Positions 7,844-41,000 are shown, counted from the stretch's first letter. The stretch: 64,000 bases of DNA from Candidatus Udaeobacter sp. (GCA_035473115.1 DATION010000007.1:41734-105733), one strand, 5' to 3'. Notes: generated by a model not told the origin, from the letters alone. Program-made: numbers and translations.

Positions 7844-9862
7844 ATGAATGTCTCTGAATTAGCCAGACAACTCAAAATTCATCCGCAGAAACTTTTGCAA
7901 ATTTTGCCTGAGTTTGGTTTTGATATCGGCGCAAAGGCTGTAAAGATAGATGATCGCGTTGCCCAACAAGTCACTCGACAGTGGAAGCGCATCAAATTTA
8001 TTTTGGAAGAAAGAGAAATAAAAGAAAAAGAAAAACAGAAAGAATTAGAAAAAGAAGCTCGTCAAAGCAGCGGCCTTACTGTTTCTATTCCCAATAAAAT
8101 TACCGTTCGTGAATTGGCCGATTTGTTGCAAGTGCCGGTTACCAGACTCATAATGGAATTCATGAAAAATGGTATTTTGGCTACGCAAAATGAAAACATT
8201 GATCATGACACTGCCGCGCTCGTAGCTCAAGACTTAGGGTTTGGCGTAGCAGAAGCTCAAACTGAAACTAAAGAAGAAGAGCCAACTCAACATGTAGAAA
8301 ATTTAGAAAATATTTTAAATACCGATGCCACTGTTTCTCGTCCGCCCATTATAGTGGTAATGGGTCACGTTGATCATGGTAAAACCAAATTACTCGATGC
8401 TATTCGAAGTACAAATGTGATGGCTCAAGAAGCTGGGGGTATTACCCAGCATATTGGCGCCTATCAGGTTGTTTGGACAAATCCAAAGACCAAAGAAAAA
8501 TCGCCACTTACCTTTATTGATACTCCTGGTCATGAAGCGTTTACCGTTATGCGCGGCCGTGGCGCCAAAGTTGCCGATATTGCGGTGTTGGTTGTAGCTG
8601 CCGATGATAGCGTGAAGCCGCAGACAGTCGAGGCAATCAAAATTATTAAAGCGGTAAAATTACCAGTAGTGGTAGCGATAAATAAAATTGATAAAGCGGG
8701 CGCTGATGTAAAAAAGGTGCGCGCTGATTTGGCTCAGTACGATATTATTGCCGAAGAATGGGGCGGGGATACGCCAATGGTAGAAATTTCAGCTAAAGAT
8801 AACTTAAATATTGATAAACTTTTGGATGTTTTGCTTTTGGTGGCCGATGTTCATGCCGATGATGTCAAAGCCAATCCTAGCCGACCGGCCGCAGGTACAG
8901 TTATTGAAGCGCATGTTGATAAAGGCGAAGGCCCGGTAGCCACTATTTTGGTCCAGACCGGAACCTTAAAATTAAACGATCCTTTGGTAGTTAACGGCGA
9001 AATTTATGGCAAAGTCCGCGCCATGAAAAATTATAAAGGCGAAAATTTACAAGAAGCGCCGCCAAGTTGTCCGGTCAGAATTTTGGGCTTTAAAGTTGCT
9101 CCGCAAGTGGGAGATATTTTGGATGTGGGCAGCGCCAGCTCGGCCACGGAAATAAATTTAAAAGAAAAAAGAAATAAACAATCCGGCGCGGAGAAAAAAG
9201 TAATTTCAGCCACCGCCGATGTTGAGGAAGAAGAGAAAAAGAAAGTTTTAAATTTAGTTATTAAAGCTGATACACTCGGGTCTTTAGAAGCGATCATTGG
9301 ATCTTTAGAAAAAATTAAACATGACGAAGTTGGTGTTCGTATAATCGGTAAAGGTTTGGGAAATATTATGGCCGATGATGTGGCTAAAGCCGAAACTGCC
9401 CAAGCGATTATTTGCGGGTTCAATGTATTGCCGGCGCCAACCGCTCAACGGATGATTCAAGATAAAAATATACAGTTTTTACAATTCAGTGTAATATATG
9501 CTTTGCTGGATTTTGTGAAAGGCGAATTAAAGAAGCTTTTGAATCCGGAAAAAATTGTTATCGAACTTGGCAAGATGCGCGTGGCTGCTATTTTCCGCAC
9601 GGCCAAAGGCAGTATGATTGTTGGTGGACGAGTGGAAGATGGAAAGTTGAAAAAAGACGCCAAAGTACGCGTACGCCGAAGCGGAGAAGTTGTTGGTTTG
9701 GGTAAATTAGCTCAATTGCAATCTGGAAAACAGACAGTTAACGAATTACCGGAAGGCAATGAAGGTGGTTTGCAATTTGACGGTAAGGTAAAATTGGAAG
9801 TTGGGGATTTGTTAGAAGCTTATACGGAAGAAGAAAAAGAAAAGAAGTTGATTTTAGAATAG
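7844..9862 (+). CDS. infB: Translation initiation factor IF-2 (short N-terminus)
   Basis: G-domain motifs GHVDHGKT and DTPGHEAF; IF-2 domain architecture. Confidence 0.9.
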
Positions 9863-9890
9863 TTTATTTATATTTTAATTATCTTTAAGT

Positions 9891-10214
9891 ATGGAGCAAG
9901 TATTTACCGACGCAAATTTTGAGGAGGAAGTTTTAAAATCAAATGTACCGGTGTTTGTGGATTTTTGGGCAGTTTGGTGCGGTCCTTGCCAGATGATGAG
10001 TCCGATTGTTGAGGGTTTTGCGAAAGACTATGAAGGTAAAAATATCAAAATCGGCAAATGCAATGTGGATGAAAACCAGGAAACCGCCACTAAGTACAGT
10101 ATTTTAAGTATTCCTTCTTTTGTTGTATTTAAAAATGGCGAAGTCGTAGATCAGGTGGTTGGCGGTATGCCCAAAGAAAAACTGCAAGCGATGTTAGAGA
10201 AGCATTTAGGTTAA
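9891..10214 (+). CDS. trxA: Thioredoxin
   Basis: WCGPC active site; 107 aa. Confidence 0.9.
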   Translation: MEQVFTDANFEEEVLKSNVPVFVDFWAVWCGPCQMMSPIVEGFAKDYEGKNIKIGKCNVDENQETATKYSILSIPSFVVFKNGEVVDQVVGGMPKEKLQAMLEKHLG

Positions 10215-10227
10215 ATTTCTTAAATAT

Positions 10228-10262
10228 TTAAAAACAGATTGCCTAAAAGCGGTCTGTTTTTG
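10228..10262 (+). terminator. Putative rho-independent terminator after trxA
   Basis: aaacagat...gtctgttt stem followed by a T-run. Confidence 0.45.
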
Positions 10263-10341
10263 TTTAAATAAATCTATCATATTTAGAGTTGATTTTTTAT
10301 CCTGTTTTAGGTAAGATATCTAAGATATAGATAATTTATTT

Positions 10342-13300
10342 ATGAAGAAATCTGTTCAATATAATCCAAAAAAAATAGAAAAAAAGTGGCAAAAATATTG
10401 GGAAACCAACAAGACTTTTGAAGTAACTGAAGATAAAACAAAAGATAAGTTTTATTCGCTAATTGAGTTCCCTTACCCAAGCGGCGAAGGCTTGCACGTC
10501 GGTCATCCGCGGCCGTTTACCGCTATGGATGTAGTTTCCCGCAAAAAAAGGATGGAAGGCAAAAATGTTTTGTTTCCAATCGGTTTTGATTCTTTTGGTC
10601 TGCCCACCGAAAATTACGCTATCAAAACCGGACAGCCTCCGGCAAAAGTTACCAAGAAAAATATTGCCAACTTTACCCGTCAGCTAAAAATGCTCGGTTA
10701 TAGTTTTGATTGGTCGCGCGTGGTTGATACTTCTGATCCAAAATATTATAAATGGACCCAGTGGCTGTTTTTGCAATTTTTTAAACATGGCTTGGCTTAC
10801 AAAAAAAATCAACCGATAAATTGGTGTCCAAAAGATAAAATCGGTCTGGCCAACGAAGAAGTGGTAAATGGCTGCTGCGAACGCTGCGGTACGGCTGTGG
10901 AAAAAAGAAATAAAGAGCAATGGATGCTGGCAATCACCAAGTATGCCGATAAACTTTTAGATGGTTTAAATGATGTAGATTACATTGATCGCGCCCGAGT
11001 GCAGCAGGAAAATTGGATCGGCAAAAGCGAAGGAGCGGAAATTGTTTTTCCACTGCGCATGATCCCGGGCCAGTCAGATGACAAACATTCGGTAAAAGTA
11101 TTTACTACCCGGCCGGATACAATTTTTGGCGCAACTTTTATTGCCATTTCTCCGGAGCTGGCCAAAAAATGGCTAGAAGTTGGCTGGCAAACAAATGATA
11201 AAGTAAAAAAATATATTGAAGAAACCATATTGCTGCGCGCTGCCGTAACCGACAGAGAAGAAAAAGCTAAAACTGGAATTGATACGGGTATTAAAGCTGT
11301 AAATCCGGTTAATAACCAAGAGGTTCCGGTTTGGATTACCAATTATGTTTTGGGTGATTTTGGCACGGGCGCAATTATGGGCGTGCCGGCGCATGATGAG
11401 CGTGATGGTGATTTTGCCAAAAAATTTGATTTGCCAATTACGGAAGTAATTCAATTAAAAGAAAACAAAACTAAGCATTTGATTTTTGATTTTGATGGAG
11501 TAATTGGCGACACTTGGGAGGCTGGGATTGAAACCAGAATAAAAATGGGAGATGTAAAAAACAGAGAAGAGGCGATTGAAGCTAATAATTTATATTTTAA
11601 TAGAAAACCGGTTCATACCAAGAATCATAATTTAACCGAAGAAGAAATGAAGGGTCTTCACTTATGGATGCAGAGGTATGGTGAAATTATGGCCAAAACC
11701 ACCTTTCCTTTGTTTGACGCTTTTATTAGCGAAATAAAAAAGATTCCCAATACAAAAATTGCTGTTATTTCTGCTGGTTCCGGACTTTATATGAGAGAGC
11801 GCAGTGCTAACAGTGGACTAAATCCTACTCATGTTCTTTCTTTTGAAGACCATCACTCCAAAGAAGAAAAAATTGAACAGGTCTGCAAAGACTGGGGAGT
11901 AAACATAAAAGATATATATTATTTTACCGATTCCAAAGCTGATGTTTACGAATTGGAAGGCTGTATGGATCAAAAAAAATTAATCGGCTGTGCTTGGGGT
12001 TATTGCGGCTATGATGCCTTACGTGAATTGTTGCCGGAAAATCAAGTTTTAAAGGAAGCCAAAGATATAAGCAAACTTTTTGCTCAGGAAAAATTGGTGG
12101 AAAAAGAAGTTATGGTTAATTCTGATTTCTTAAATGGTTTATCTGTTACCGAAGCCAAAGAAAAAGTTATTTCTTGGCTGAAAGAAAAAAGTTTTGGTAA
12201 GGGCCAAACCCAATACAAACTGCGCGATTGGGTATTTTCTCGTCAGCGTTATTGGGGTGAACCGATTCCATTGGTATTTTGCGAAAATTGTAAAAATAAA
12301 AAACAAAAAGTTCTAATGATCCATGGTTTTGAATCATCGGGCGATAATATTTGGTTTCCGTGGATGAAGAGTGAATTAGAAAAAAATGGCTACGAAGTTT
12401 TTGCGCCGACTGTCAGGAATCCAAATCATGGCAGTGTGAAAGATTGGGTTGCTGACTTGCTTCCTTATATGGAACAGCTTGACGAAAACGATGTTATCAT
12501 CGGACATAGTTTGGGCAGTAAAGCTGCTTTGCACTTGTTAGAAAAAACTGGTAAAAAAATTGGGCATTTATATTTGGTAGCTTCGGCTATCGGTACTATC
12601 CAGAATAGAGATTGGGATGAGCTGCGAGCTAAATGGCCAAAATCTGATATTGATTCTTTGCAAGCTTTTTGGCATGCGCCGGTTGATTATAAGAAAATTT
12701 CCAAATTGGTTAGAAGTATTAATTTAATCCGATCTAGCGACGATAAGAATATTCCTGCTTCTACTCACACAGATTTGCCGCCAGGCTGGCTGGTGCAAAC
12801 CTGGAATGGTTTTGGCCATTTCATGCACTTGGAAATACCGGAATTATTGCGCGAAATTTTAACTAGTAAAAATACCGGCTGGATTCCTTTGCCTGAAAGT
12901 GAATTGCCGCTTAAATTGCCAAAAGTAGAAAAGTATCAGCCGACCGATAATGGTGAATCGCCTTTGGCTGCCATGGAAAAGTGGGTTAATACCAAATGTC
13001 CGCAATGCGGTGGTTCGGCCAAACGAGAAACTGATACAATGCCAAATTGGGCCGGATCAAGCTGGTATTCTTTGCGTTACGCCGATCCGCACAACGACCA
13101 AGAATTTGCTTCTCAAGAAAAATTAAATTACTGGGCTCCGGTAGATTGGTACAATGGTGGAATGGAACATGTGGTTTTACATCTTTTGTATTCTCGTTTT
13201 TGGAATATATTTTTGCATGATATCGGACTAGTGCCGCATTCCGAACCGTATGCCAAACGCACCGCCCATGGAATGATCCTGGCCAAAGGCGGAGAAAAAA

Positions 13301-13962
13301 TGTCTAAATCCAAAGGCAATGTTATCAATCCGGACGATATGGTTGAGCAGTTTGGCGCGGATGCACTTCGGACTTATATTATGTTTATGGGTCCGTTTGA
13401 TCAGGCCGTTGAGTGGGATATCAATGGTTTGATTGGTGTAAAACGGTTTTTGGATAAGGTTTGGAATTTGCAAAGTAAGATCGCCAAAGAAAACGAAAAA
13501 AGTTCAACTGTCAGTTTGATTGCCAAGGCGACCAAAAAAGTAACTGATTGTATTGATATGATGAAATTCAATACAGCTGTGTCAGCTTTAATGGAGCTTA
13601 GCAATGAACTTTATAAGGAAGAAAAGATTGATCTGTATGCTTATCAAAATTTTATCAAACTTCTATCTCCATTTGCGCCTCATTTGGCTCAAGAGCTTTG
13701 GGAAAAATTTGGTGATAAAAATGAATTGGTGTTTTCTTCTTGGCCTAAATATCATGAGGAAGATCTTAAAGAAGAGACTCTAACTCTGGCAGTACAAATA
13801 AATGGCAAACTACGTGATACTATTTTGGTAAGCGCAGAAATTTCCGAAGACGAAGCTAAAAAAATAGCTCTGGCCAGTGAAAAAGTCCAAAAATGGCTGG
13901 AAGGCAAAGAGCCAAAAAAAGTAATTTATGTAAAAGGAAAGTTAGTTAGCATCGTTGTTTAG
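10342..13962 (+). CDS. leuS: Leucyl-tRNA synthetase carrying two inserted domains: a HAD-like hydrolase and a YdeN/RBBP9-type alpha/beta serine hydrolase
   Basis: HIGH (HVGHPRP) and KMSKS motifs, the CP1 editing motif VPAHDERD and the return to the catalytic core (RLRDW..RQRYWGEPIP). A HAD fold (FDFDGVIGDT motif I, VISAGS, FTDSKAD) sits between ITEVIQ and NSDFLNGL. A GHSLG serine hydrolase sits between the FCENC and KCPQCGG zinc-knuckle halves. Confidence 0.85.
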   Translation: MKKSVQYNPKKIEKKWQKYWETNKTFEVTEDKTKDKFYSLIEFPYPSGEGLHVGHPRPFTAMDVVSRKKRMEGKNVLFPIGFDSFGLPTENYAIKTGQPPAKVTKKNIANFTRQLKMLGYSFDWSRVVDTSDPKYYKWTQWLFLQFFKHGLAYKKNQPINWCPKDKIGLANEEVVNGCCERCGTAVEKRNKEQWMLAITKYADKLLDGLNDVDYIDRARVQQENWIGKSEGAEIVFPLRMIPGQSDDKHSVKVFTTRPDTIFGATFIAISPELAKKWLEVGWQTNDKVKKYIEETILLRAAVTDREEKAKTGIDTGIKAVNPVNNQEVPVWITNYVLGDFGTGAIMGVPAHDERDGDFAKKFDLPITEVIQLKENKTKHLIFDFDGVIGDTWEAGIETRIKMGDVKNREEAIEANNLYFNRKPVHTKNHNLTEEEMKGLHLWMQRYGEIMAKTTFPLFDAFISEIKKIPNTKIAVISAGSGLYMRERSANSGLNPTHVLSFEDHHSKEEKIEQVCKDWGVNIKDIYYFTDSKADVYELEGCMDQKKLIGCAWGYCGYDALRELLPENQVLKEAKDISKLFAQEKLVEKEVMVNSDFLNGLSVTEAKEKVISWLKEKSFGKGQTQYKLRDWVFSRQRYWGEPIPLVFCENCKNKKQKVLMIHGFESSGDNIWFPWMKSELEKNGYEVFAPTVRNPNHGSVKDWVADLLPYMEQLDENDVIIGHSLGSKAALHLLEKTGKKIGHLYLVASAIGTIQNRDWDELRAKWPKSDIDSLQAFWHAPVDYKKISKLVRSINLIRSSDDKNIPASTHTDLPPGWLVQTWNGFGHFMHLEIPELLREILTSKNTGWIPLPESELPLKLPKVEKYQPTDNGESPLAAMEKWVNTKCPQCGGSAKRETDTMPNWAGSSWYSLRYADPHNDQEFASQEKLNYWAPVDWYNGGMEHVVLHLLYSRFWNIFLHDIGLVPHSEPYAKRTAHGMILAKGGEKMSKSKGNVINPDDMVEQFGADALRTYIMFMGPFDQAVEWDINGLIGVKRFLDKVWNLQSKIAKENEKSSTVSLIAKATKKVTDCIDMMKFNTAVSALMELSNELYKEEKIDLYAYQNFIKLLSPFAPHLAQELWEKFGDKNELVFSSWPKYHEEDLKEETLTLAVQINGKLRDTILVSAEISEDEAKKIALASEKVQKWLEGKEPKKVIYVKGKLVSIVV

Positions 13963-13967
13963 GTCTT

Positions 13968-15497
13968 ATGAAGGAGGAGCTGCAGCGCATAATTAACTCA
14001 AAAAGCAAAACGTTTCTCGCGTTTTGTTTTTGTTTTATCCTTGGTGCGTCTCTGTTTTCTTTTTTTAATAATAAAGCCTGGTTATTTTATGTGTATATCA
14101 GTTTGTTTCTAATTTTATTTTTTGCCATAATTTTTTGGCAGGATAAATATAAACGATTTTTTATTTTGTGTTTATTAGTTTTTATTTTTGGAGGTTTAAG
14201 ATTTTTAATCAGTATTCCTGCTTATAATTCATCAAGAATAGAATATTACAATGGCAATAAAATAAATTTGCAAGGTTGGGTTTCGGCCGAACCAAGTATT
14301 GGTTTAAGTGATGCCGGTTATATTATTAAAGTACTTTGCCAAGGCAGTCCATGCAATAAAGTAAACGGTAAAATAATTATCAAAACCAGACTTTATCCTC
14401 AATACAATTATGGCGATGAATTAAAAATTAGCTGTCTGTTGCAGCAGCCGGAAAATTTTACTGATAGTAATTTTAACTACCAAAAATATTTAGCCAAACA
14501 AGGCGTCTGGTCTATTTGCTTTAATCCAAAAGTTATAGCCACTGGCAACAACAAAGGAAATTTTTTATTCAAAACAATGTTTTTGCTAAAAGCAAAAATT
14601 CAAACCCAGATGGCTCGTCTTTGGCCAGAGCCGGCCAATAGTTTGATGGCTGGAGTTTTGTATGGCAGCAAAAGCGGTCTGCCGCAAAGTTTAATTGATA
14701 ATTTTACTCGCACCGGAGTTACTCATATTATTGCGGTGTCTGGCTATAATGTCAGTATCATTGTGGCCATGCTTAATATTTGTTTGATTTATTTTGGTTT
14801 GTCGCGGCGGCAATCATTTTGGTTTTTAAACTTTTTAATTTTAGCTTTTGTGTTTTTTAGCGGTGCCACGGCTTCGGTGGTGCGAGCGGGGATAATGGCC
14901 GCTATAGTTTTATTTGCTCAGTACGCAGGCAGATTATCGGCAGTCGGCAGGGTCTTGGTGTATACCGCCGTAATCATGCTGCTATTTAATCCCTATGTTT
15001 TAGTCTGGGACGCTGGTTTTCAGCTTTCATTTTTATCTACGTTCGGATTGGTATATCTGTCGCCAGTTTTACAAAATTTTGCGACAAATAAATTTAAAAC
15101 TCCAAGCTGGTTATTGTCAATCATAGAAGTTTTAGTTACTACTATCTCGGCTATAATTGCCACTCTGCCACTAATTCTTTTTCAGTTTGGCAGATTGTCA
15201 CTAGTAGCGCCGCTAGTTAATGTTTTAGTTTTATGGCTGGTGCCGTGGTTGATGCTGCTTGGTTTTATTTCCTTAATTTTAAGCTGGCTAGTTTTTCCTT
15301 TGGGGCAACTAGCCGCTTGGGTAGCTGGCTTGGGTTTAAATTATGTTATAATTATTGTCGGTTGGTTTGGCAATAAAAATTGGAGCGCAGTTAGTGTTCG
15401 GATCCCTTTATGGTTCATGTTGACTGTATATCTAGTATTAATATTTTTTCTAATCAAAAATTTATATGGCCAAAAAAGCAAAAGTTCTGTCGTCTGA
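13968..15497 (+). CDS. comEC: ComEC/Rec2 competence protein, N-terminal part (DUF4131 plus competence channel domain)
   Basis: THIIAVSGYNVSII, SVVRAGIMA and DAGFQLSF motifs of the ComEC competence domain; polytopic. Confidence 0.8.
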   Translation: MKEELQRIINSKSKTFLAFCFCFILGASLFSFFNNKAWLFYVYISLFLILFFAIIFWQDKYKRFFILCLLVFIFGGLRFLISIPAYNSSRIEYYNGNKINLQGWVSAEPSIGLSDAGYIIKVLCQGSPCNKVNGKIIIKTRLYPQYNYGDELKISCLLQQPENFTDSNFNYQKYLAKQGVWSICFNPKVIATGNNKGNFLFKTMFLLKAKIQTQMARLWPEPANSLMAGVLYGSKSGLPQSLIDNFTRTGVTHIIAVSGYNVSIIVAMLNICLIYFGLSRRQSFWFLNFLILAFVFFSGATASVVRAGIMAAIVLFAQYAGRLSAVGRVLVYTAVIMLLFNPYVLVWDAGFQLSFLSTFGLVYLSPVLQNFATNKFKTPSWLLSIIEVLVTTISAIIATLPLILFQFGRLSLVAPLVNVLVLWLVPWLMLLGFISLILSWLVFPLGQLAAWVAGLGLNYVIIIVGWFGNKNWSAVSVRIPLWFMLTVYLVLIFFLIKNLYGQKSKSSVV

Positions 15498-29314: not shown

Positions 29315-32300
29315 ATGCAAAAATTTAATAAATTTGCCCTTAAAATTTTATTGCTCATATTTACTTTTGTAACTATAGCCGGTTCTTTGTCTTTTGTTCA
29401 GCCAGCCCAAGCAATTCCAGTAGAAGTAGTTGCCGACGCGCCTAGTACTATGGATAAAGTACTAGATCAGATCGCGTTATTTTTAAAAACCGCTACGGTA
29501 AATATAGCTGTGCAGTCCTTCGCTTATTTTATGCGCCGGGTATCTTATGATTCAGCGGTTTGGTTAGCTTCCGGCGGCAAAGGTGAAACTCCATTTGCCC
29601 ATACCAAAACTTTTGGCAATTATATTTCCGATGTAGCTGACAATGCTGCCGGAGTAGCTATAGAACAATTAGGTAAACCTTATGGTTTAAATTTATGTAA
29701 AATTCCTGACCCAAAAATTGATTTAGCTATGCGTATTGGGTTGAACTATCAGTTTTTAAGTCAAACAGTAGTTAAGCCGACTTGTACCTGGCAAAGCTTT
29801 CAAAAAGATGTTTTAAATGCCGATAATTGGAAGAGCCAGTTTGGCAGCGTTGATGACGTCGCCAAAAAATTTAATGTTGCTTTTTCTGTAGACCAAAGCG
29901 ATATTGGTATTTTGTTAAGTGCCACAGAAAAAATTGATAATATAGTAGCCCAACAGACAACTGCCGAAACACTGCAAAGACAGGAAGGTCAAGGTGTCAA
30001 AGATAAGAAGACTTTGATTTCTGATAATATTTCTACAAACGGTAACTTGATCGCTCATGATATACAATCCTTAACCCCTTCTGAGCAGCAAAAAAAAGCT
30101 GAACAAGGTTTTTGGTCCACAGTTGGTACAGGACTAACGGGGGCAATCAGTGGAGCTGGTTCGTTGTTTTTAAATACTCTGCTTAATAAAATGGTGGAGA
30201 ATTACAGAAATAAAGGAATGTTTCCTTTTGGGGCTTGTATTGGCGACAGCGGAGATCCTAGCTGCAAAGGAGTACAAAATAATCTTCTTAATGCCGAAGG
30301 CCAAATAAGCCAAGGTGGGCGCCAGGGCGCGCAAGCGTTATTCGCCGATTTTCTTACTCCGCCTAATGTTCAAATTGATCGCTATGATATTTTGGGTAGT
30401 TTTTCCAGTTGTCCGCCAACCTCTCCTGGTCCGGAAAATTGTGTGGTTGATAGCGGTTTGGCTCAAGCGGCTCAGGAAACTAGTGTTGGCAAGCCAATTA
30501 CTATCGCTGACGCGTTGGCCAAAAATTGGCTCCATGGCGAATGGAAGTTACTTTCTCCGGAACGCAGCGCTGATCAAACAGATGTAAATTGTTACCAGCG
30601 AGCTTATTGTTATGCCAATATTGCCAAGCTGCGTAAATCTAGAATTTTGCCTTTAGGTTTTGAAATTGCCGCTTTAAACAGCAATCCGGATACTCCTTGG
30701 ACTTTAAAACAAGTTGTTGACGGCTTTAATGATTGTAATTTCATCAAAGATGCTAATGGTAATGTGGTAGGCGTAGATAATGATCCAATTAATAAACCAT
30801 TTTGCCATCTGATTGATCCAAACTGGGTAGTAAAAGCTCCGGCTTTGAAATGTAACTTTTTAGCGTTTGGCGCCACGCCATTTTTTAGAGGCACACCCAA
30901 TCGCGCTCAAGAATGCGCTGATCTCAGTACCTGTGTAGCTTATGATAAAAATGGCAATTGTTCTAACCAAGGTTATTGTACTCGCGAACGCAATGTTTGG
31001 AAGATAGATGCTGCTAAATGCGATTCTCAATTTCGTACCTGTCAATCTTTCCAAGACAGCACCGGTAAAGATGTCAGTTATCTTTATCGTACGCTTGATA
31101 CTGCTTATTGTAATCAAGACAATGTCGGTTGCGCGGAGTATAGTCTGAAACAAGATAACAATGGCAGCTGGACTAATTATGCAAAAAATGATTTAAATAG
31201 CGCTGGTGAAAATTCAGCTATATATTTGAATAATAAAATTTCCACCAATTGTTCTGCTAACTCTGATGGCTGCGCGTCTTTTCAGGTAGCCAGCACTTCG
31301 GATAAACTTTATTTACGTCAGGCTCCATATTATTTACAGTGTTATGACACAAACCCAAGTACGCTGGCAATAGACTGGCCTCAAACAAACTCTGATCTGG
31401 CCAAATTACCGACCAAATCAGCTTGCAATAATTTTTCTCAAGCCTGTATTCCGGATGAAGTAAATTGTAATAGTTACAACCCAGTCAGTTATGTGGGAAC
31501 TGCGATTCCTGGCAAGTTTACGCCAGCTACAGTTGTAGAGAATCAGATAGTTTGGAATGATCAATGTGATAAAAGATGTGTTGGTTATTCAGCTTATCGA
31601 GAAATACCAAGTAATTATTCTGATGGTCAGGCAGTCAGTTATATTATTCCTTCTTCCGGTTCAAAATGCAGCGCCATTGATGAAGGCTGTACAAGCTTTA
31701 CCAATCTTAGTGCCACAGTTGGCGGTTTAGAAAAAGTAGAACACTTTTCTTATTTGCGACCTTGTATTTTGCCAGATACGACCAAGCAGAAAAACTTTTA
31801 TACTTACGAAGGTTCGGCTGTCGGCGGATATCAGTTAAAAGGTTTTGTCTTAGAAAAAAATTCTGACGGCAGCCCTAAATATTTTTATCGAACTAACGAA
31901 GATTTAGTTGGCTATGATTCAGTTTGCAGTGAGTCTTTGTATAAGCAAGGTTTGGCTAGTCCGGATTGCCGCCAATTTAATGACGATAAAGGTGCGGTAT
32001 ATTATAAATTATTATCAAAAACTATTGCTGTTTCTCAGTCTTGTACGCCGTATCGCTTAAATGACACTGAACTTCGTCCGGTAAATTTATCACAGGCTGA
32101 TTGTCTGACACAAAAAGGAAACTGGGATAGTGCCGCTGGCAAATGCAGCGTCTGTTTCCAAAACGGCGAATATCGCGACGGACAATGTTTTTATTCCGGT
32201 CTGCCTGGTGATGTGCAAAATACCGCCGGCATCAGTAAAACTTGCGCTGCGGAAGTAAACAGCTGTCGAGCCTACAAAGGCAATGCGGGCAATAATGTCA

Positions 32301-35300
32301 AAAATATTTTTAATAATAATTTTGAAGAAACCCCGGCAGCTATGGCTCTAAAAGATTGGGGACCGGCAGCCAATATCTCTGTATCTTTAGAATCTACTCA
32401 TGCGGGCGAACATTCTTTGTCTTATAACGGCACAGCCGCGGTCTATAAAAATCTATCTTTAACTCCAAGCAAAAGTTATGACATAACTTTTTGGGCTAAA
32501 GGCAGCGTTGGAGCTAAGGCGACTGTTATTTTGCAAAATGACAGTGTTGTCACTTTGGGTGACGCTAGCGTAGGTGACGTTTGGCAATTTTATCACTTTG
32601 GTCCGGTAGAACTGGGCGGAACAGCTACCAGCACTCAGCTTAAGTTTTCGATCAACGGACAGTTGTTTATAGATAATGTTAGCCTAAAAGAAGTTACTGA
32701 TTATACTTATTTAGTTAAAAATACCTTAAAAGTTAATCCGGTTTGTGACAGCAATTTAGATGATAATTTACCGGGCGAAGCGCTGGGTTGTTCGGCTTAC
32801 AAAACTCCGGATGACAAACCAGCTTACTTAACTAAGTTTACTTCTCTTTGCCGAGAAAAAGCTATCGGTTGTACAGCTCTATACGATACGCGTAAAACTC
32901 CGGATGAACCTGGTCCGCGCGCTTATAATGTTTGGTTCTCCGGAGAAGGCGGTACTAGTGTTGCCAAAACTATTGGCGGTCAAAATTATAGTTGCCAAGT
33001 TCCGGTCGGCCAAATTGGCTGTTACGTTAATACAGTTGGCGCTACTTTAAGTACAATTACTGCTGCTGGCGGAGAGGTTGTTACTTCCACAATTTATGTT
33101 CAGCCAGACACACCTTTATCATCACCGATATATTTGGTTGCCAATCAAGAAGCTACTTGTAACGCAGTTGATTTAGGCTGTGTATCTGCTGGCAGATTGG
33201 TACAGACTCCAACCGGAGCAACTTATGAAAATATTCTTATAAAAAATGATCCGGCTTTGTACGATACTACCCTTTGTCAGAAAGAAGCGGTTGGCTGTAA
33301 TACTTACACCTCGGCCAATGGCGCTTTGTACTTTAAAGATCCAGCTACTATCGGACAAAAAATTTGCGCTTACAGAGAAAATGTTTTCCTTAACGGCTCA
33401 AATTATAGCGGCTGGTTCTGGAAAAATGTTGGCAAATGTTCAGCGAGCGGTAATTTATGTACGACCGATAAAGATTGTGGCAGCAGCGGCGGCACTTGCG
33501 CTGGTTTAGACGAGCAACCATGTTATCCAAATTATCTACAGACGGGTAATAATTATGGCCTGTGGTCGTACGGTGTAACCAGTTCATATAATAATTTTGT
33601 AGGTGAATGTCCTTCAACACAAAGCGGCTGTACCGAATTTATTGATCATAATGATAATAATAAAGTCTATGATTTAATTAATGATGATCGAATGAAAGCA
33701 TTGCAAAGCGGCTGCAATGGACAGATTAGTGAAAAATCTGGCTGTATCTTGTTTGATAAAACAGATTTGCCAAATAAATTATGGAATACTGCCCAGTCCT
33801 ACGCCAATAGCGTCAAATTAAATAATAGTCTAGTTGGGCCGGTGGCCAGCAATTCCGGAGATCCTAATGATGCTAATATAATTTTGAAAGTAGATCGGGA
33901 CAGAGAATGCGGTGAATGGCTGCAATGTCGATCATCACATCGCGTATTTGATTCTCAAACCGGAAATTATAAAGAAATCTGTGATGCTATTGGCAGGTGT
34001 AATAAGAGTCCGGAATCAGCCGAAAAAGGCGATATTACCAACTGTGCCAACTGGGTCAGTTCGCAAGAATTAGTTAATCAGGTTTTAACCGACGATGCTT
34101 ATCGTAACCGAAACACGGATTGGACCGGTCAAGAGTTTAGTGGTTACAGTATTTTGAATTATTATCCAGTAGAAGAACTATCAGAAGTAAATTTTGGTGG
34201 TAATTCCGCGACCGATCAACAGTGGAGGTTGGCAAAAAAAGTTCCATGCGGCGGCGGATCTAACTGTGCTTCCAGTGTTTTCACCGAAGATTTTGCTTGT
34301 AACACGACCGGCTTAGCTTGCGGACGAGGCAATGCTGGAATTTGCCAAAACCATATTTGTTTGTCTAACCCTAATGGAACTACTGCCGATGTTACTCATC
34401 AATCGATCGGTCAATCTTGCCGCGCCTATCCGGAAGAAACTTCTCCATTCCCTAATTCCGAACCAATTGGCAACTCCTCAGTATATGGATCTGTAAATTT
34501 ATGCAATGAAACTGCCGGTTTTATTACCGACAAAACCAAAGCGGCGGCTTGTGATTGTAATTACACCAAGATTAATTATGGTGATAGCTTTACCAAGTAT
34601 TGGGATTTTAATAACCCAAATAGCAATGGTATTCTGAAACCGGATGGAACTTTGGCCAAAGGAATAGTTAGTGGTATCTGTTCCGGCGGAGTTAGCGCCG
34701 GACTAGTATGCGGTACAGACAGTGATTGTACTGGCGGCAGCTGTCAGAAATTAGGCAAGCAGGCTCGCCTGATCGGCTGGCACGGCTATTGTATTGAGCC
34801 GGATATTTCTAGGCCGTTAAATGCGGAACCGAATAATTTTGCTTGTTTAACCTGGTTCCCGGTTGATACTATTATGGGCTCTCCGGACATTAATAGTCAG
34901 CACGTAGAAGCTGGTTTCCAGGCATCAAGCGCTGGTGGAAAATATTATTGTTTGGACGCGCAAGGAAATCAGCAATTTGACTCCGCCGCTCAGCAAAATA
35001 ATTATGATAAACTTTTAGGTACAAAAACTATTGCTCGTCCCGGTAGTGTAAATAACAGCTGTACTGATACTAGTGGCCCTTGCTCAAGTTGTGTTAGCAA
35101 TGGCTGTTTTACCAATCCTTTTACCAGAGAAAAAAGAGTCATCGGTAATCTTTCCTCACAAAATATTTTCTTAGATGGTATTGATTATATTAAGATAGTC
35201 ACTAAGAGTGGAGATAATAACTGGTTGGGCAACAGAACTTTTTATATTAGAAATGGTTTAAAAACAAAATATAATGGCCCGCAGTGGAGTGTGGTCGGCA

Positions 35301-38050: not shown

Positions 38051-41000
38051 ATGCTTGTCATACTCAATAAATTAAACTCTTATTTTTCTAAGTTTTGGCT
38101 GCTTTTAAAGCCGCGCCGCAGGCTCGGATTGGTTAGTTTTGTTATCTTAACTTCTTTGCTATTGGTAGTTTGGTTTGTTAGTACCAGTACAGCTCAGGCC
38201 GGAGTTATTGATGGCATAAGAGATTTATTTACCAGTTTGATATTTTTGGTAGCCGGTTTATTTATTAAACTGACGTTTTTTTTATTAAAATTTGTTATCG
38301 AAATTGCCGGCTATAACAGCTTCATAGATTCCTCGGCGGTGATTGTCGGCTGGGTAATGGTGCGCGATATAACCAATATGTTTTTTGTGGTTATTTTGCT
38401 GCTCATATCTTTTGGCACTATCCTAGGTTTAGAACAATACGAATATAAAAAATTATTAGTCAAACTGCTCATTGCCGCTATTGTGGTAAATTTTAGTCGA
38501 ATCATTTGCGGTATTATTATTGATATTGCTCAAGTGGTAATGATTACTTTTGTTAATGGTATTGCTGCTACTGCCGGAGGTAATTTAGTCAGTATGTTTG
38601 GGGTAGACAAGATTTTTAAATTAACCGGCAGCGCCCAAGGTATAGCGCAGCAAGGCTCCACATTTTTGGCCGCGGTGGCTGCCATTGGATTTTCTTCCAT
38701 CATGATGATGACGATGTTAACTTTTCTGTTTTTATTATTGGCACGCATGGTGGCATTGTGGATTTTAATTGTACTTTCTCCATTTGCTTTTGTTTTAAAT
38801 GTTTTGCCGCAAACCCAAAAATATGCGGGTCAATGGTGGGACGAGTTTGGCGGCAATGTCGTGGCCGGACCGATTGTCGCTTTTTTTCTTTGGTTAGCTT
38901 TTGTTACCGTCGGCAATGGTCGAATAAACAATGAGATTTCGGCCGGTAGTTCTCAACCACTTACTCAAGAAGGCGCAGAAAATTCTCCGGAAACTTCTAC
39001 TGGTATTACCGATATAATGAGTTGGGCCCAGATGGCTAATTTTGCGATTGCTATCGGTATGTTGCTTACCGGCGCTAAGGTGGCTCAGCAACTTGGCGCG
39101 GCTGGCGGATCTTTAATGAGTAAAGCCGGTGATTTTGGCAAGAGAGTGGCAATGGTTGCTTCTGGTCTTACTGCGGCACGCTGGGCTGGTGGCAAAGCTT
39201 TGGCAGCTGGAAAGGCGACTGGCAAGTTTGCTTTAATGAAAGCGCCATTGATTGGCGGTGAGGCTTGGCAGCGAAGAGGTCGTAGAATTAGAGCTGAAGC
39301 TTCTGGCAGATATTATGATTGGGTAGGAAAAAGAACAATTAAGGCTGGTAAAATTGCAAAACAATTGGCTGTTAATGAAAAAGGTAAATATATAATAAAA
39401 GGTACAGCAGAAAACTCTACTCCAGAATTAGACAAAAATGGCAAGCCTATTCTTGATGAGCATGGTGAGATTAAGTATAAAGATATAAAGCAGAGTGGTC
39501 CTATGGATTGGTTTAGAAGAATGAAAGCCAGGGCGCAGTTAGCTGTTGGACCAGGTTTTTCGACATATAACGATGAGTATCTTACAGATATGGAAACCAC
39601 TGTAAAATATAAAAAGGAACGCTTAGAGCATATGGTCAGCACCAGTAGCTTAAGGGTTGGTTTAGAAAAACGTAAAGCTGAAGAAATGCTTCATGGCTAT
39701 GAAGAAACTGGAAAAGAGATTAAATCTGGTAGAACTGCCAGAATGCAAGCCAGAAGACAAGAAATAAACGAGATAATTGAAAATGGGGTTGATGTTGATT
39801 CTAAACTACGTAAAAAAGGCTTAAATAGTAATGAAATATTTGAAGCTAAAGAATTTTATCAGAGAACAAGAAAAGCTGAGTCTGGTAAGGCTACAGCTAA
39901 AGTTACCAGTGAAGAAACTAATGCCATAAAAAACCTTAAGGAAGCGGAAGTGTTAGAAGGCTATATGGCTTCTAAAGGAGCTGCTCAAGAATCTCGAACT
40001 GCTGCTTTGAAAGCGGAAACAAAACAGATTGATGATAAGTTAAATGCGGAGAGAGAAATAAAAGAATTAGAAGCCATACGAGAATTGATTAGAGAAGGTG
40101 GATTTGGACATGAAAAGCAGAAAGATATCACAGCCAGCAAAGCTATGTTAGAGCAGATTACTTTTGATATCAATCAAGATAAAGATTTGGCTTTAGCTAT
40201 TGCCAGAGATCAGTATTTAAAAGCTCAATACAGAGACAGTGAAGCTCTAAACGAGCAGAATGTGTTGGCAAAACAAGCAAAAGAAAGAATTGAAAAACAA
40301 TCGGTTGGTACCGATTACCCAAGATCAAAAGCCAGAGTAGCCAGCTTGTTAAACCAAAAAAACGATGCATTTGCCGAATTGGAAGCTGCCAAGTTAGCCG
40401 GTGATTCTGATAAAATTAAAATAGCTACTAAAAAATTTGAGCAAAGCGAAAAAAGTTTATCCGAAATGCAGATCGGTAACTGGGAGCAGCACGGTTCGAT
40501 CGGAGCTGGTAATATGGCCGAAGTCGTCTCCAAAATTGATCCCGAGTTGTTAAAAGGCGTAAGCATTGATCCTGCAGATACTAAATCTGTCAGAAAAGTC
40601 CAAGCCGCTATATTTACATCTTTAACTGGAGATAAAGTAGACGCGTCAGGCGCAGGTGTTAATGCCGCAGTTGAGAAATTTAACAAAATGCATGGTGCCC
40701 GTTCGCAGGCAATGTTGGAACAGCTCAGATTGGCGCTCGATAAAGCTGCTGGTCAGGGTGTATTTTCGGTAGCTGGAGTATTGCAAACAGAATTAGGCAG
40801 TGACGGCAGAATTTCAACTAAAGTAGCCGATGTAGACAATGCGGATGAAAAAATAAGAGATAGAGTTGTATCTTATATAAAAAGCCGAAGAGAAGCAGCC
40901 AGATCAGCCGCAAAAATAACAACCATCAGCGCCGGTTTGGATGGAACAGTTGATATCAATAGCGAAGGTAAAGCAGTAGTTGAATCGCCAGAATCAATAA

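What the first reader, a model, noticed from the sequence alone, without database searches (positions are those of the whole stretch)
10342..13962. Leucyl-tRNA synthetase with two embedded enzyme domains (HAD-like hydrolase in CP1; Ser-hydrolase between the zinc-knuckle halves)
The 1206-aa LeuRS is ~350 aa longer than typical bacterial enzymes. A ~200-aa HAD-fold domain (DxDGV/T motif I FDFDGVIGDT, Ser motif II, FTDSKAD motif IV) replaces the short loop between the VPAHDxRD motif and the NSDFxNGL segment of the editing domain. A ~185-aa YdeN/RBBP9-type alpha/beta hydrolase (GHSLG nucleophile elbow, His in GFGHFMH) is inserted exactly between the CxxC (FCENC) and the CPQCGG knuckles. Neither has intein terminal motifs, so they are retained domains rather than splicing elements. 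Catalytic-looking hydrolase modules inside an aaRS editing region suggest added proofreading or moonlighting chemistry.
Basis: partly seen in the sequence, partly recalled or inferred. Interest (0 to 1): 0.8.

Follow-up and report, generated by a model that had tools for sequence, protein, structure and literature searches.

The report
LeuRS carrying two nested hydrolase enzymes
A leucyl-tRNA synthetase from a tiny-genome (Patescibacteria) bacterium has two complete, apparently active enzymes (a HAD phosphatase and an RBBP9/YdeN-type serine hydrolase) spliced in-frame into its surface loops, and the same enzyme cassettes turn up nested in many other housekeeping proteins of these bacteria, a pattern I could not find described in the literature.

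Summary
ORF 10342-13962 (+) is a 1206-aa bacterial-type LeuRS with intact HIGH, KMSKS and CP1 editing motifs. Residues 372-586 replace about 15 residues of the editing domain with a C1-capped HAD-IA fold in which all four catalytic motifs are invariant. Residues 651-845, directly after the first CxxC zinc knuckle, form an RBBP9/YdeN-type alpha/beta hydrolase with a conserved Ser-Asp-His triad. Both inserts fold confidently on their own (pLDDT 93). Each is about 50% identical, end to end, to a free-standing Patescibacteria protein of about 190-205 aa. They are not inteins, introns or assembly artefacts: 11 independent assemblies share the architecture.

The finding is part of a wider pattern. 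Related LeuRS carry HAD, NUDIX, Ser-hydrolase or methyltransferase modules in many combinations at about five hot-spots. The same HAD family is nested in ValRS, other aaRS, EngA, PNPase and CTP synthase. When free-standing, it often sits directly upstream of leuS or overlaps hisS.

"Added proofreading" is not specifically supported, because CP1 editing motifs stay intact whether or not the modules are present. I read the modules as autonomous small-molecule hydrolases tethered to LeuRS. The HAD module has a genuine but undefined link to aaRS. I rate this a new variant of a known kind.

The parts
10342..13962 (+). Complete leuS ORF (1206 aa plus stop). It is a bacterial-type LeuRS that lacks the leucine-specific domain.
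   Evidence: ORF; TIGR00396 953.6 bits against a cut-off of 548.4; four-block alignment to Tth and E. coli LeuRS structures.
10342..11454 (+). LeuRS aa 1-371. This covers the Rossmann-fold N-terminal half with HIGH (HVGH, aa 52-55, nt 10495-10506), the ZN-1 region, and the main body of the CP1 editing domain with TTRPDT (aa 255-260) and GTGAIMGVPAHDERD (aa 341-355).
   Evidence: q6-371 = Tth3-363; PF13603 aa 223-378 = profile positions 1-148 of 185; motif positions.
11455..12099 (+). Nested module 1, aa 372-586. It is a complete C1-capped HAD-IA phosphatase-like enzyme. Motif I is D383/D385 (nt 11488-11496), motif II is S477, motif III is K507/K510, and motif IV is D530/D534.
12100..12291 (+). 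LeuRS aa 587-650. This is the C-terminal segment of CP1 (VNSDFLNGL...), the return to the catalytic core (RDWVFSRQRYWGEPIP), and the first zinc-knuckle CxxC (C647, C650).
   Evidence: q587-650 = Tth379-442; alignment A1.
12292..12876 (+). Nested module 2, aa 651-845. It is a complete RBBP9/YdeN-type alpha/beta serine hydrolase (PF06821). The oxyanion HG is H661-G662, the nucleophile is S723 in GHSLG (nt 12508-12510), the acid is D800/D801 (nt 12739-12744), and the His is H826 (nt 12817-12819).
   Evidence: PF06821 54 bits, GA 22; triad conserved in 46 copies; AF2 pLDDT 93.1, pTM 0.91; Foldseek: RBBP9 and YdeN, E = 1e-13, TM 0.74-0.83; profile against YdeN E = 1.5e-30; 47% identical to free-standing 188-aa P0272.
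12877..13959 (+). LeuRS aa 846-1206. This covers the inter-knuckle segment, the second knuckle CPQC (C886, C889), the second Rossmann half with KMSKS (aa 986-990, nt 13297-13311), the anticodon-binding domain and the C-terminal domain.
   Evidence: q846-983 = Tth443-581; q986-1206 = Tth637-876; PF08264 aa 1058-1168.

Best explanation
This is a working bacterial-type LeuRS of a Patescibacteria (Magasanikbacteria-like) genome. Two whole enzymes have been nested in-frame into its surface loops, and both are still enzymes.

Module 1 (aa 372-586) is a C1-capped HAD-IA phosphatase sitting inside the CP1 editing domain, which is itself an insertion in the Rossmann fold. Module 2 (aa 651-845) is an RBBP9/YdeN-type Ser-Asp-His hydrolase placed immediately after the first CxxC of the zinc knuckle. 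Both derive from abundant free-standing genes of about 190-205 aa in CPR/DPANN organisms.

Both belong to a small pool of hydrolase 'cassettes' (HAD, NUDIX, Ham1/ITPase, Ser-hydrolase, occasionally a methyltransferase). These cassettes have been nested or fused repeatedly into LeuRS at about five loop hot-spots, and into ValRS, other aaRS, EngA/Der, PNPase and CTP synthase.

The most likely mode of action is that each module folds and acts autonomously as a small-molecule hydrolase tethered to, and co-expressed stoichiometrically with, the synthetase. They do not act as a new tRNA-editing site. The HAD family has a real functional tie to aaRS, since it is also encoded directly upstream of leuS or overlapping hisS. 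It probably removes a phosphorylated by-product or nucleotide (PPi, AMP/NMP, or products of the partner NUDIX/Ham1 modules).

Shown here: the anatomy, the folds, the catalytic-residue conservation, the distribution and the gene linkage. Inferred: that the modules are catalytically active, what their substrates are, and that they act independently of LeuRS editing.
For: Host integrity: TIGR00396 scores 953.6 bits. HIGH, KMSKS, TTRPDT and GTG..AHD are present in the query and in nearly all 120 relatives, whatever their architecture.

Whole-gene origin: the HAD module is 50% identical without gaps to residues 3-206 of a 208-aa free-standing protein. The Ser-hydrolase module is 47% identical to residues 2-186 of a 188-aa free-standing protein. 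Hundreds of free-standing members exist.

Cassette behaviour: 95 of the 120 closest LeuRS carry at least one module, in 8 or more combinations. The hot-spots are at core columns ~250, 371, 407, 455-495 and ~615. At least 11 (HAD) and 14 (Ser-hydrolase) gain/loss steps are needed on the core tree. Site-B module identity is uncoupled from host identity (Spearman 0.14; P0011 is 79% identical in the core but 31% in the module). In Doudnabacteria LeuRS the Ser-hydrolase sits at a different site.

Other hosts: EngA with 2-3 HAD copies, ValRS, a class-II aaRS, a ThrRS/AlaRS-type protein, PNPase, CTP synthase, and stand-alone Ham1-NUDIX-HAD and Ser-hydrolase-HAD chains.

aaRS linkage of the free-standing HAD: the orders NUDIX-HAD-LeuRS, HAD-LeuRS (three loci) and HisRS overlapping HAD by 4 nt account for 5 of 7 sampled contexts.
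Against: No activity or substrate is known for either module family. The nearest solved relatives are at most 19% (HAD) and at most 26% (Ser-hydrolase) identical, so chemistry cannot be transferred.

The four HAD-leuS operons come from one clade (their LeuRS are 70-83% identical to each other), so they count as roughly one evolutionary observation.

The three sampled free-standing Ser-hydrolases show no aaRS linkage, so any coupling of module 2 to LeuRS rests only on its nesting.

Whether the modules face the synthetic site, the editing site or the tRNA path is therefore untested.

RBBP9's aminoacyl-X hydrolase chemistry keeps a proofreading-like role open.

The trees used are quick NJ/identity analyses, not rigorous phylogenies.
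Confidence: 0.6

Rival explanations
1. The Ser-hydrolase, and possibly the HAD, acts on LeuRS intermediates or products. It would hydrolyse mis-acylated aminoacyl-tRNA esters or mis-activated aminoacyl-adenylates next to the synthetic site, adding a third quality-control site to LeuRS.
For: The closest characterised relative, RBBP9, forms acyl-enzymes with free-alpha-amine Leu/Ile/Phe/Tyr/Trp, and its authors say it may cleave amide, ester or thioester bonds (PMC8866121). That is the chemistry needed for aminoacyl-ester hydrolysis. The module is placed beside the catalytic core, right after the CxxC. A Ser-hydrolase or abhydrolase module also occurs in a ValRS (P0149) and at a second LeuRS site in Doudnabacteria, so aaRS are recurrent hosts.
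Against: CP1 editing motifs remain intact with or without the module, so there is no complementarity. Close relatives manage with no module at all, such as the 769-aa forms that are 78-79% identical in the core. Very different Ser-hydrolase cassettes (31% identical) occupy the same site in near-identical hosts, which is hard to reconcile with a co-evolved tRNA-facing active site. Free-standing homologues are common in CPR/DPANN and are not aaRS-linked in the 3 contexts sampled. The lid segment carrying RBBP9's alpha-amine anchor (Y99...E108) does not align. The HAD is a capped, small-molecule type.
Confidence: 0.15
2. This is the pure passenger or selfish-cassette reading. The modules have no functional relationship to LeuRS. 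They are house-cleaning genes that became nested in highly expressed, essential genes. The cause would be either genome streamlining and guaranteed co-expression, or an intein-like persistence strategy in which removal risks damaging an essential gene. They are tolerated because they sit in surface loops.
For: The hosts are diverse and essential: LeuRS, ValRS, a class-II aaRS, EngA, PNPase and CTP synthase. There are multiple sites per host. Distribution among close relatives is patchy, with module swapping at one site. The modules equal entire free-standing genes. The HAD segment has slightly lower GC (0.33-0.38) than the LeuRS core (0.40-0.45).
Against: No mobility machinery, target-site duplications or terminal repeats are present at the junctions. 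The only junction repeat is an A-rich Lys/Asn-coding stretch. The free-standing HAD is preferentially adjacent to aaRS genes, and the NUDIX-then-HAD order is the same in operon and nested forms. This argues for selection on the association, although operon hitch-hiking could mimic it. Catalytic residues are strictly conserved, so the modules are at least not junk.
Confidence: 0.22
3. This is the built-in immunity reading. The tethered hydrolases destroy aminoacyl-adenylate-mimic antibiotics (agrocin-84/TM84-like or microcin-C-like compounds) at the synthetase that they target.
For: This rests on analogy only. Hydrolases such as MccF (a serine peptidase) and HIT-family MccH detoxify processed microcin C, and Parcubacteria encode MccH homologues (bioRxiv 10.1101/2020.03.04.977132). 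The hosts are enriched in aaRS.
Against: There is no homology of the modules to MccF, MccH or MccE. EngA, PNPase and CTP synthase as hosts do not fit this idea. No toxin cluster lies nearby in the window.
Confidence: 0.03
4. This is the artefact reading: an assembly chimera or frameshifted neighbouring genes mis-read as one ORF, or inteins or introns that are removed before the mature protein forms.
For: None found. I considered it because the sequence comes from a metagenome-assembled genome with a doubtful taxon label.
Against: The reading frame is uninterrupted, with LeuRS sequence on both sides of both inserts. Eleven further proteins, 64-71% identical and from independent assemblies, have the same HAD plus Ser-hydrolase architecture, some on contigs of 512-831 kb. 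There is no Hint or intein domain, no intein terminal residues, and no Rfam intron.
Confidence: 0.01

Closest known systems
Bacterial-type leucyl-tRNA synthetase (TIGR00396; T. thermophilus 1h3n, E. coli 4aq7)
   Same: It has the same class-Ia core, HIGH and KMSKS motifs, a CP1 editing domain with the T-rich and GTG...AHD motifs, two zinc-knuckle regions, and the anticodon-binding and C-terminal domains. The match to 1h3n has E = 5.5e-195.
   Different: It carries 410 aa of foreign catalytic domains at two loops, and the leucine-specific domain is absent. The editing domain, which a 2026 survey (PMC13114784) reports as never acting as a host, here hosts another domain. That makes a three-level nest: Rossmann fold, then CP1, then HAD.
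HAD superfamily, subfamily IA with a C1 cap (COG0546 phosphoglycolate-phosphatase-like proteins such as 2ah5, 3mc1 and 2hdo; phosphoserine phosphatase 1f5s; BT2127 pyrophosphatase 3qu2)
   Different: Identity to any solved member is only 11-19%, so no substrate can be assigned. It belongs to a distinct CPR-specific family of about 205 aa with its own conserved signature (HHSKEEKIE, YYFTDxKADVYELE, GCAWGYxG). That family is found free-standing, next to aaRS genes, or nested in housekeeping proteins.
PF06821 Ser_hydrolase family: B. subtilis YdeN (1uxo) and human RBBP9 (2qs9, 7oex)
   Same: It is a minimal alpha/beta hydrolase of about 190 aa without a large lid, with a Ser-Asp-His triad and an HG oxyanion motif. 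TM-scores are 0.74-0.83, and the module profile matches YdeN at E = 1.5e-30.
   Different: Identity is 20-26%. The segment bearing RBBP9's alpha-amine anchor does not align. Here the enzyme is nested inside another enzyme rather than free-standing.
aaRS with appended or inserted accessory domains (for example NCBIfam NF040702 'ileS_w_GNAT'; eukaryotic GST, WHEP and EMAPII appendages; free-standing trans-editing factors)
   Same: An aaRS polypeptide carries an extra, non-canonical domain. NF040702 appeared in the NCBIfam scan as a curated class of IleRS with an N-acetyltransferase domain.
   Different: Those additions are mostly terminal or single, and they are lineage-fixed. Here whole hydrolases are nested internally, in combinatorial and rapidly changing sets, and they are shared with non-aaRS hosts.
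Inteins (in-frame elements in conserved sites of essential proteins)
   Same: These are in-frame insertions of autonomous folds into essential, conserved housekeeping proteins. They are patchily distributed among close relatives and recur at the same sites.
   Different: There is no Hint fold, no splicing residues and no homing endonuclease (junction residues read directly). The inserts are expected to stay in the mature protein.

Membership tests
Bacterial-type LeuRS (TIGR00396 leuS_bact) | Whole-protein score above the curated equivalog cut-off | tested here: met
   953.6 bits against a cut-off of 548.4, matched in 4 stretches because of the two inserts.
Bacterial-type LeuRS (TIGR00396 leuS_bact) | Class-I signature motifs HIGH and KMSKS | tested here: met
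   HVGH at aa 52-55 and KMSKS at aa 986-990.
Bacterial-type LeuRS (TIGR00396 leuS_bact) | CP1 editing domain with the T-rich region and the conserved Asp | tested here: met
   PF13603 scores 187 bits in two stretches. TTRPDT is at aa 255 and GTGAIMGVPAHDERD at aa 341.
Bacterial-type LeuRS (TIGR00396 leuS_bact) | Aminoacylation and editing activity | not testable with these tools
   This needs biochemistry.
HAD superfamily (phosphatase-type, subfamily IA, C1 cap) | Motif I DxDx(T/V), with the nucleophile and the acid/base Asp | tested here: met
   F-D383-F-D385-G-V is invariant in 27 of 27 LeuRS-hosted copies and is present in the free-standing homologue P0135.
HAD superfamily (phosphatase-type, subfamily IA, C1 cap) | Motif II Ser/Thr, motif III Lys, and motif IV acidic pair | tested here: met
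   S477, K507/K510 and D530...D534 are all 100% conserved.
HAD superfamily (phosphatase-type, subfamily IA, C1 cap) | Rossmannoid fold with a helical cap inserted between motifs I and II | tested here: met
HAD superfamily (phosphatase-type, subfamily IA, C1 cap) | Assignment to a specific substrate family (for example PSP, PGP, PPase or nucleotidase) | tested here: inconclusive
   No NCBIfam equivalog matches, only TIGR01509 at 13.8 bits, below its cut-off. No PDB sequence hit has E < 0.3. Structural neighbours span many activities at 11-19% identity.
PF06821 Ser_hydrolase (YdeN/RBBP9) | Pfam score above the gathering threshold | tested here: met
   54.3 bits against GA 22 on the isolated module.
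PF06821 Ser_hydrolase (YdeN/RBBP9) | Ser-Asp-His triad with a GxSxG elbow and an HG oxyanion motif | tested here: met
   S723 (GHSLG), H826 and H661-G662 are invariant in 46 copies. An Asp follows the strand (D800/D801, or shifted by one position in the 180-aa sub-family) in all aligned copies. These residues align with the YdeN and RBBP9 catalytic residues.
PF06821 Ser_hydrolase (YdeN/RBBP9) | Minimal alpha/beta-hydrolase fold of about 190 aa | tested here: met
   The AF2 model has pLDDT 93.1. The top Foldseek hits are RBBP9 and YdeN, with E = 8e-14 to 6e-13 and TM 0.74-0.83.
PF06821 Ser_hydrolase (YdeN/RBBP9) | RBBP9-type aminopeptidase pocket (alpha-amine anchor Glu108/Tyr99) | tested here: inconclusive
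   The lid segment does not align between the module profile and RBBP9. Activity is not testable here.
Intein | Hint-fold splicing domain with an N-terminal Cys/Ser/Thr and a C-terminal His-Asn followed by Cys/Ser/Thr | tested here: not met
   There is no Hint or intein Pfam hit at E <= 0.1. Insert 1 runs L372...E586 and is followed by V. Insert 2 runs K651...G845 and is followed by W. Each insert is fully accounted for by a hydrolase fold.
Group I/II intron or other structured RNA insertion | Match to an Rfam covariance model, and an interrupted reading frame | tested here: not met
   No Rfam match at gathering score in 9800-14200. The ORF is continuous.

The most novel reading that the evidence does not exclude
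Patescibacteria may possess a previously undescribed system of hydrolase cassettes: a dedicated HAD-IA family, NUDIX, Ham1 and RBBP9/YdeN-type Ser-hydrolases. In this reading the cassettes are functionally coupled to aminoacyl-tRNA synthetases and other nucleotide-consuming housekeeping enzymes. They are encoded either in the same operon or nested in-frame at defined loop hot-spots. They act in cis on the host enzyme's by-products or mis-products, for example PPi, AMP or Ap4A clearance, or hydrolysis of aminoacyl esters. That would be a new class of aaRS accessory or quality-control domains, and a case of rapid, site-specific domain-cassette exchange within essential genes.
Probability: 0.3. 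Interest if true: 0.85.

Novelty: new variant of a known kind. Interest (0 to 1): 0.66.

Why it matters
aaRS are among the most conserved enzymes, and the bacterial LeuRS architecture is regarded as fixed. Here whole active-looking enzymes are nested inside it, one of them inside the editing domain, which a recent large survey lists as never acting as a host. Close relatives show gain, loss and swapping of such cassettes at the same loops.

If the modules are active, three things follow. First, they offer natural examples of enzyme-in-enzyme nesting that tolerate two or three modules per host, which is useful for protein engineering. Second, they point to an unrecognised metabolic link between aminoacylation and phosphatase, NUDIX or esterase chemistry in organisms with minimal genomes. 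Third, they mean that automated annotation mislabels essential genes: this LeuRS is named 'alpha/beta fold hydrolase' in NCBI. Fourth, insert-bearing markers such as LeuRS, ValRS and EngA can distort alignments used for CPR phylogeny and for genome-completeness estimates.

Tried and rejected
1. Fragmented LeuRS. The genome scan returned apparent LeuRS matches of 4.7-5.3 kb in Doudnabacteria and Saccharibacteria (L008, L051, L072), which looked like LeuRS interrupted by other genes. Pfam showed they are simply neighbouring MetRS-TatD(-PNP)-LeuRS genes joined by tblastn. I rejected them as split genes. L072 and L042 did, however, reveal a Ser-hydrolase at a different LeuRS site.

2. Inteins and introns. 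There is no Hint domain, no terminal splicing residues and no Rfam hit.

3. DNA-level insertion scars. Repeat search across 11300-13050 found no target-site duplications or terminal inverted repeats bracketing either insert. One 23-nt repeat, 74% identical, lies at both 5' junctions (11448-11470 and 12286-12308). It is an A-rich Lys/Asn-coding stretch and probably reflects composition.

4. Assigning a HAD substrate by sequence. The single sequence and the profile against PDB gave nothing below E = 0.3. NCBIfam gave no equivalog. Structural neighbours are too diverse to choose among.

5. Transferring RBBP9's substrate pocket. The lid region does not align.

6. Editing-loss complementarity. I tested whether LeuRS with extra hydrolases had degenerate CP1 motifs. 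They do not.

7. Free-standing paralogues of either module in the 64-kb window or in 80 related loci. None were found outside LeuRS.

8. Literature. Seven full-text searches found no description of HAD, NUDIX or Ser-hydrolase domains nested in bacterial aaRS. This covers open-access papers and bioRxiv only.

9. Full-length AlphaFold model. This was not possible, because 1206 aa exceeds the 1200-aa limit and both jobs went to the modules.

10. NUDIX counts. The single-seed NUDIX detection under-counts, since some proteins scored as 'none' carry PF00293. The NUDIX parsimony figure should therefore be ignored.

Full report
**1. The observation**

The window contains an uninterrupted ORF at 10342-13962 (+) of 1206 aa. 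It lies between infB and a thioredoxin gene upstream and a ComEC-like gene downstream. It scores 953.6 bits against NCBIfam TIGR00396 (bacterial LeuRS, cut-off 548.4), but the match is broken into four stretches.

A phmmer search of PDB sequences aligns it to T. thermophilus LeuRS 1h3n (E = 5.5e-195) in four colinear blocks:
- q6-371 = Tth3-363
- q587-650 = Tth379-442
- q846-983 = Tth443-581
- q986-1206 = Tth637-876

Two segments therefore have no counterpart:
- aa 372-586 (215 aa; nt 11455-12099) replaces Tth 364-378 inside the editing domain.
- aa 651-845 (195 aa; nt 12292-12876) falls exactly between the last Cys of the first CxxC knuckle (Tth C442; query C650) and the next residue.

The leucine-specific domain (Tth ~582-636) is missing.

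Pfam reports PF13603 (LeuRS editing domain) in two stretches, the first ending at profile position 148 of 185 at residue 378. Insert 1 is therefore nested inside the editing domain, which is itself an insertion in the Rossmann fold.

**2. What the inserts are**

*Insert 1.* It passes the Pfam HAD_2 gathering score (31.1 bits against 23.8 when scanned alone). Modelled with an alignment of 20 homologous inserts, it folds with pLDDT 92.9 and pTM 0.90 into a Rossmannoid core with a helical cap between the first two strands. Its structural neighbours are C1-capped HAD-IA phosphatases:
- Foldseek TM 0.67-0.71

Identity is only 11-19%, and no sequence-level PDB or NCBIfam equivalog match exists. The superfamily and cap type are established, but the substrate is not. 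All four HAD motifs are invariant in 27 LeuRS-hosted copies: D383/D385, S477, K507/K510 and D530/D534.

*Insert 2.* It scores 54.3 bits on PF06821 Ser_hydrolase (GA 22) and folds with pLDDT 93.1 and pTM 0.91. Its best structural matches are human RBBP9 and B. subtilis YdeN (E = 8e-14 to 6e-13, TM 0.74-0.83). A profile of 22 inserts hits YdeN at E = 1.5e-30. Across 46 copies that are as little as ~25% identical, the following are conserved:
- the oxyanion motif H661-G662
- the nucleophile S723 in GHSLG
- H826
- an acidic residue after the preceding strand (D800/D801, shifted by one position in one sub-family)

The modules evolve faster than the host. Mean pairwise identity is 61% against 76% for HAD and 35% against 69% for the Ser-hydrolase. 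Even so, they keep exactly the catalytic residues, which is the signature of retained enzymatic function.

**3. Not inteins, introns or artefacts**

- There is no Hint or intein domain.
- The insert termini are L372...E586|V and K651...G845|W, which lack splicing residues.
- Rfam finds nothing in 9800-14200.
- No target-site duplications or terminal repeats flank the inserts.
- The identical protein is in NCBI (P0001).
- Eleven further proteins, 64-71% identical and from independent assemblies, have the same HAD plus Ser-hydrolase architecture, some on contigs of 512 kb and 831 kb.

**4. The wider pattern in LeuRS**

The 120 closest LeuRS relatives are all Patescibacteria-type where they are named (Magasanikbacteria, Parcubacteria, Doudnabacteria, Uhrbacteria). 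They form a mosaic of architectures:

| Architecture | Approximate length (aa) |
|---|---|
| Core only | 769-815 |
| + HAD | ~1010 |
| + Ser-hydrolase | ~1000 |
| + NUDIX | ~950 |
| HAD + Ser-hydrolase | ~1210 |
| NUDIX + Ser-hydrolase | ~1140 |
| NUDIX + HAD in tandem at the CP1 site | ~1165 |
| All three | 1358 |
| Methyltransferase + Ser-hydrolase | 1231 |
| Larger forms | up to 1536 |

Ninety-five of the 120 carry at least one module. This sample is biased towards the query.

Profile alignment to a 770-column core places the inserts at a few hot-spots:
- column ~371 (the CP1 loop; 89 sequences)
- column 407 (after the CxxC; 72 sequences)
- columns ~452-495
- columns ~206-250
- column ~615

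On a quick NJ tree of the core, HAD needs at least 11 and the Ser-hydrolase at least 14 gain/loss steps.

For HAD, module identity tracks host identity moderately (Spearman 0.64). For the site-B Ser-hydrolase it does not (0.14). P0011 is 79% identical to the query in the core but only 31% in the module occupying the same site. In Doudnabacteria the Ser-hydrolase sits at yet another site, before CP1 (L072, L042). Together these indicate repeated insertion or cassette replacement rather than a single ancient event.

**5. Beyond LeuRS**

A profile of the HAD module, searched against 1.84 billion representative proteins, finds 881 relatives (93 with E < 1e-30). About 80 of the best 150 are free-standing proteins of about 205 aa. 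The query module is 50% identical, without a single gap, to residues 3-206 of one of them (P0135).

Fifty-one of the 150 are larger hosts. Nineteen are LeuRS. The others include:
- EngA/Der GTPases with two or three HAD copies; the query module is 45% and 39% identical to the two copies in P0121
- ValRS, one of them also carrying NUDIX and an abhydrolase segment
- a class-I aaRS with HAD plus Ham1
- a class-II Asp/Lys/Asn-type aaRS
- a ThrRS/AlaRS-type protein
- PNPase
- CTP synthase
- host-less chains Ham1-NUDIX-HAD and Ser-hydrolase-HAD

The Ser-hydrolase module is likewise 47% identical to a complete free-standing 188-aa protein. That family is common in CPR bacteria and DPANN archaea.

**6. 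Gene-neighbourhood evidence**

I sampled seven free-standing HAD genes on long contigs:
- Four lie 53-70 nt upstream of leuS on the same strand. One has a NUDIX gene immediately before it (NUDIX-HAD-LeuRS in L081), the same order as the nested NUDIX-HAD tandem of P0018 and P0005. Another precedes a LeuRS that has NUDIX nested (L085).
- One overlaps the stop codon of hisS by 4 nt (L082).
- One abuts a pseudouridine synthase gene and rplS.
- One lies near a NUDIX gene.

The four leuS-linked loci share synteny, and their LeuRS are 70-83% identical to each other but only ~45% identical to the query. They therefore represent one other CPR clade. The HAD-LeuRS association thus exists in at least two distant clades, in two forms: adjacent and nested.

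Three sampled free-standing Ser-hydrolases show no aaRS linkage.

**7. How it most likely works**

*Shown.* The host keeps all catalytic and editing motifs, whatever modules it carries. The modules are complete, confidently folding enzymes with intact active-site residues, and they derive from free-standing genes. They recur in many hosts and at many sites.

*Inferred.*
- Each module acts autonomously as a small-molecule hydrolase tethered to LeuRS. The C1 cap of the HAD argues for small substrates rather than macromolecules; this rests on established knowledge of HAD cap types.
- The HAD family has a functional tie to aaRS. It plausibly removes phosphorylated by-products or nucleotides (PPi, AMP/NMP), or works downstream of its frequent partners NUDIX and Ham1.
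- The modules do not constitute a new tRNA-editing site.

The proofreading idea is not excluded for the Ser-hydrolase. RBBP9 forms acyl-enzymes with free-amine Leu/Ile/Phe/Tyr/Trp and may cleave esters (PMC8866121). However, the RBBP9 amine-anchoring lid does not align with the module. Closely related LeuRS carry very different cassettes or none. And CP1 shows no compensatory decay.

A purely 'passenger' or selfish reading also remains viable. In that reading the modules are co-expressed with an essential gene and are hard to delete, in an intein-like way but without splicing.

**8. Comparison with what is known, and novelty**

Domain insertion is common, and aaRS with extra domains are known. 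NCBIfam even curates an IleRS with a GNAT domain (NF040702). A 2026 survey of 2.7 million domains lists the LeuRS editing domain as an insertion-only module with no instance of acting as a host (PMC13114784). The present protein is a counter-example.

Seven full-text searches found no description of HAD, NUDIX or Ser-hydrolase enzymes nested in bacterial aaRS, or of the cassette pattern across CPR housekeeping proteins. The library covers only open-access papers and bioRxiv, so absence is not proof. The sequences themselves are public but poorly named. This LeuRS is annotated 'alpha/beta fold hydrolase [Candidatus Udaeobacter sp.]'.

I classify the finding as a new variant of a known kind: an aaRS with accessory domains, by way of domain insertion. 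It has a realistic chance (~0.3) of pointing to a new class of aaRS-coupled accessory enzymes.

**9. Limits**

- No activity data exist for either module.
- There is no full-length model, so the orientation of the modules relative to the active sites is unknown.
- The trees and parsimony counts are rough.
- The relatives are sampled with a bias towards the query.
- The gene-context sample is small: seven HAD and three Ser-hydrolase loci.

Noticed in passing
window 10342-13962 (protein P0001): The identical protein is deposited in NCBI as 'alpha/beta fold hydrolase [Candidatus Udaeobacter sp.]', a Verrucomicrobiota label. Its closest relatives and the gene content of the window (ComEC, giant orphan ORFs, minimal LeuRS) are Patescibacteria/Magasanikbacteria-like. 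Both the product name and the taxon label are probably wrong, the latter through mis-binning.
   Followed up: partly
relatives P0046, P0042, P0047, P0050-52 (alignment A1, columns ~370-770): The 769-770-aa 'core-only' LeuRS relatives lack the C-terminal CP1 segment (VNSDFLNGL...EAKEKIISWLEE, ~45 aa) in addition to the leucine-specific domain. That makes them among the shortest editing-domain-containing LeuRS. Whether their editing still works is unknown.
   Followed up: no
window 29315-37009 (+) and 38051-41293 (+): Two very large ORFs (2564 aa and 1080 aa) have no Pfam match at E <= 1e-5. They are followed by a TraG/VirB4-like ATPase at 44457-46325. This may be a surface or conjugation-like apparatus typical of CPR episymbionts.
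   Followed up: no
window 11448-11470 and 12286-12308: A 23-nt A-rich direct repeat (74% identical) lies exactly at the 5' junctions of both inserts. It encodes the Lys/Asn-rich linkers LKENKTK and CKNKKQK. It probably reflects composition, or the MKK... N-termini of the ancestral free-standing genes, but it is the only junction-associated sequence feature I found.
   Followed up: partly
window 11450-12100 compared with flanking leuS sequence: GC content of the HAD module (0.33-0.38) is lower than that of the adjacent LeuRS core (0.40-0.45). The Ser-hydrolase module (~0.40) is not distinct.
   Followed up: no
P0121, P0123, P0160, P0176, P0182, P0186 (EngA/Der homologues): EngA/Der GTPases of CPR bacteria carry two or three HAD modules nested between and within their GTPase domains, reaching lengths of 870-1160 aa. 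This is at least as striking as the LeuRS case and I could not find it described.
   Followed up: partly
P0061 (1231 aa); P0078, P0101 and P0114 (1314-1536 aa): One LeuRS carries a methyltransferase (PF08241/PF13649) at the CP1 site instead of HAD or NUDIX. Others have additional unidentified inserts of ~200 aa at core columns ~206-245 and ~490.
   Followed up: no
L008, L051, L072 (Doudnabacteria, Saccharibacteria): The gene order metG - tatD(-PNP phosphorylase) - leuS is conserved. tblastn joined MetRS and LeuRS into one apparent 4.7-5.3 kb 'match'.
   Followed up: yes
L081, L085, L088/89, L095: A synteny block DUF5671 - (NUDIX) - HAD - leuS - sigma-70-like/HARE-HTH gene is conserved in one CPR clade. 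The sigma-factor-like gene directly downstream of leuS may be co-regulated with it.
   Followed up: no
P0070, P0021, P0018, P0005 (alignment A1, columns 370-510): The nested NUDIX modules keep a canonical Nudix box (for example GGHVEPGETFEQTARREAAEESGY in P0070), so they too look catalytically competent.
   Followed up: partly
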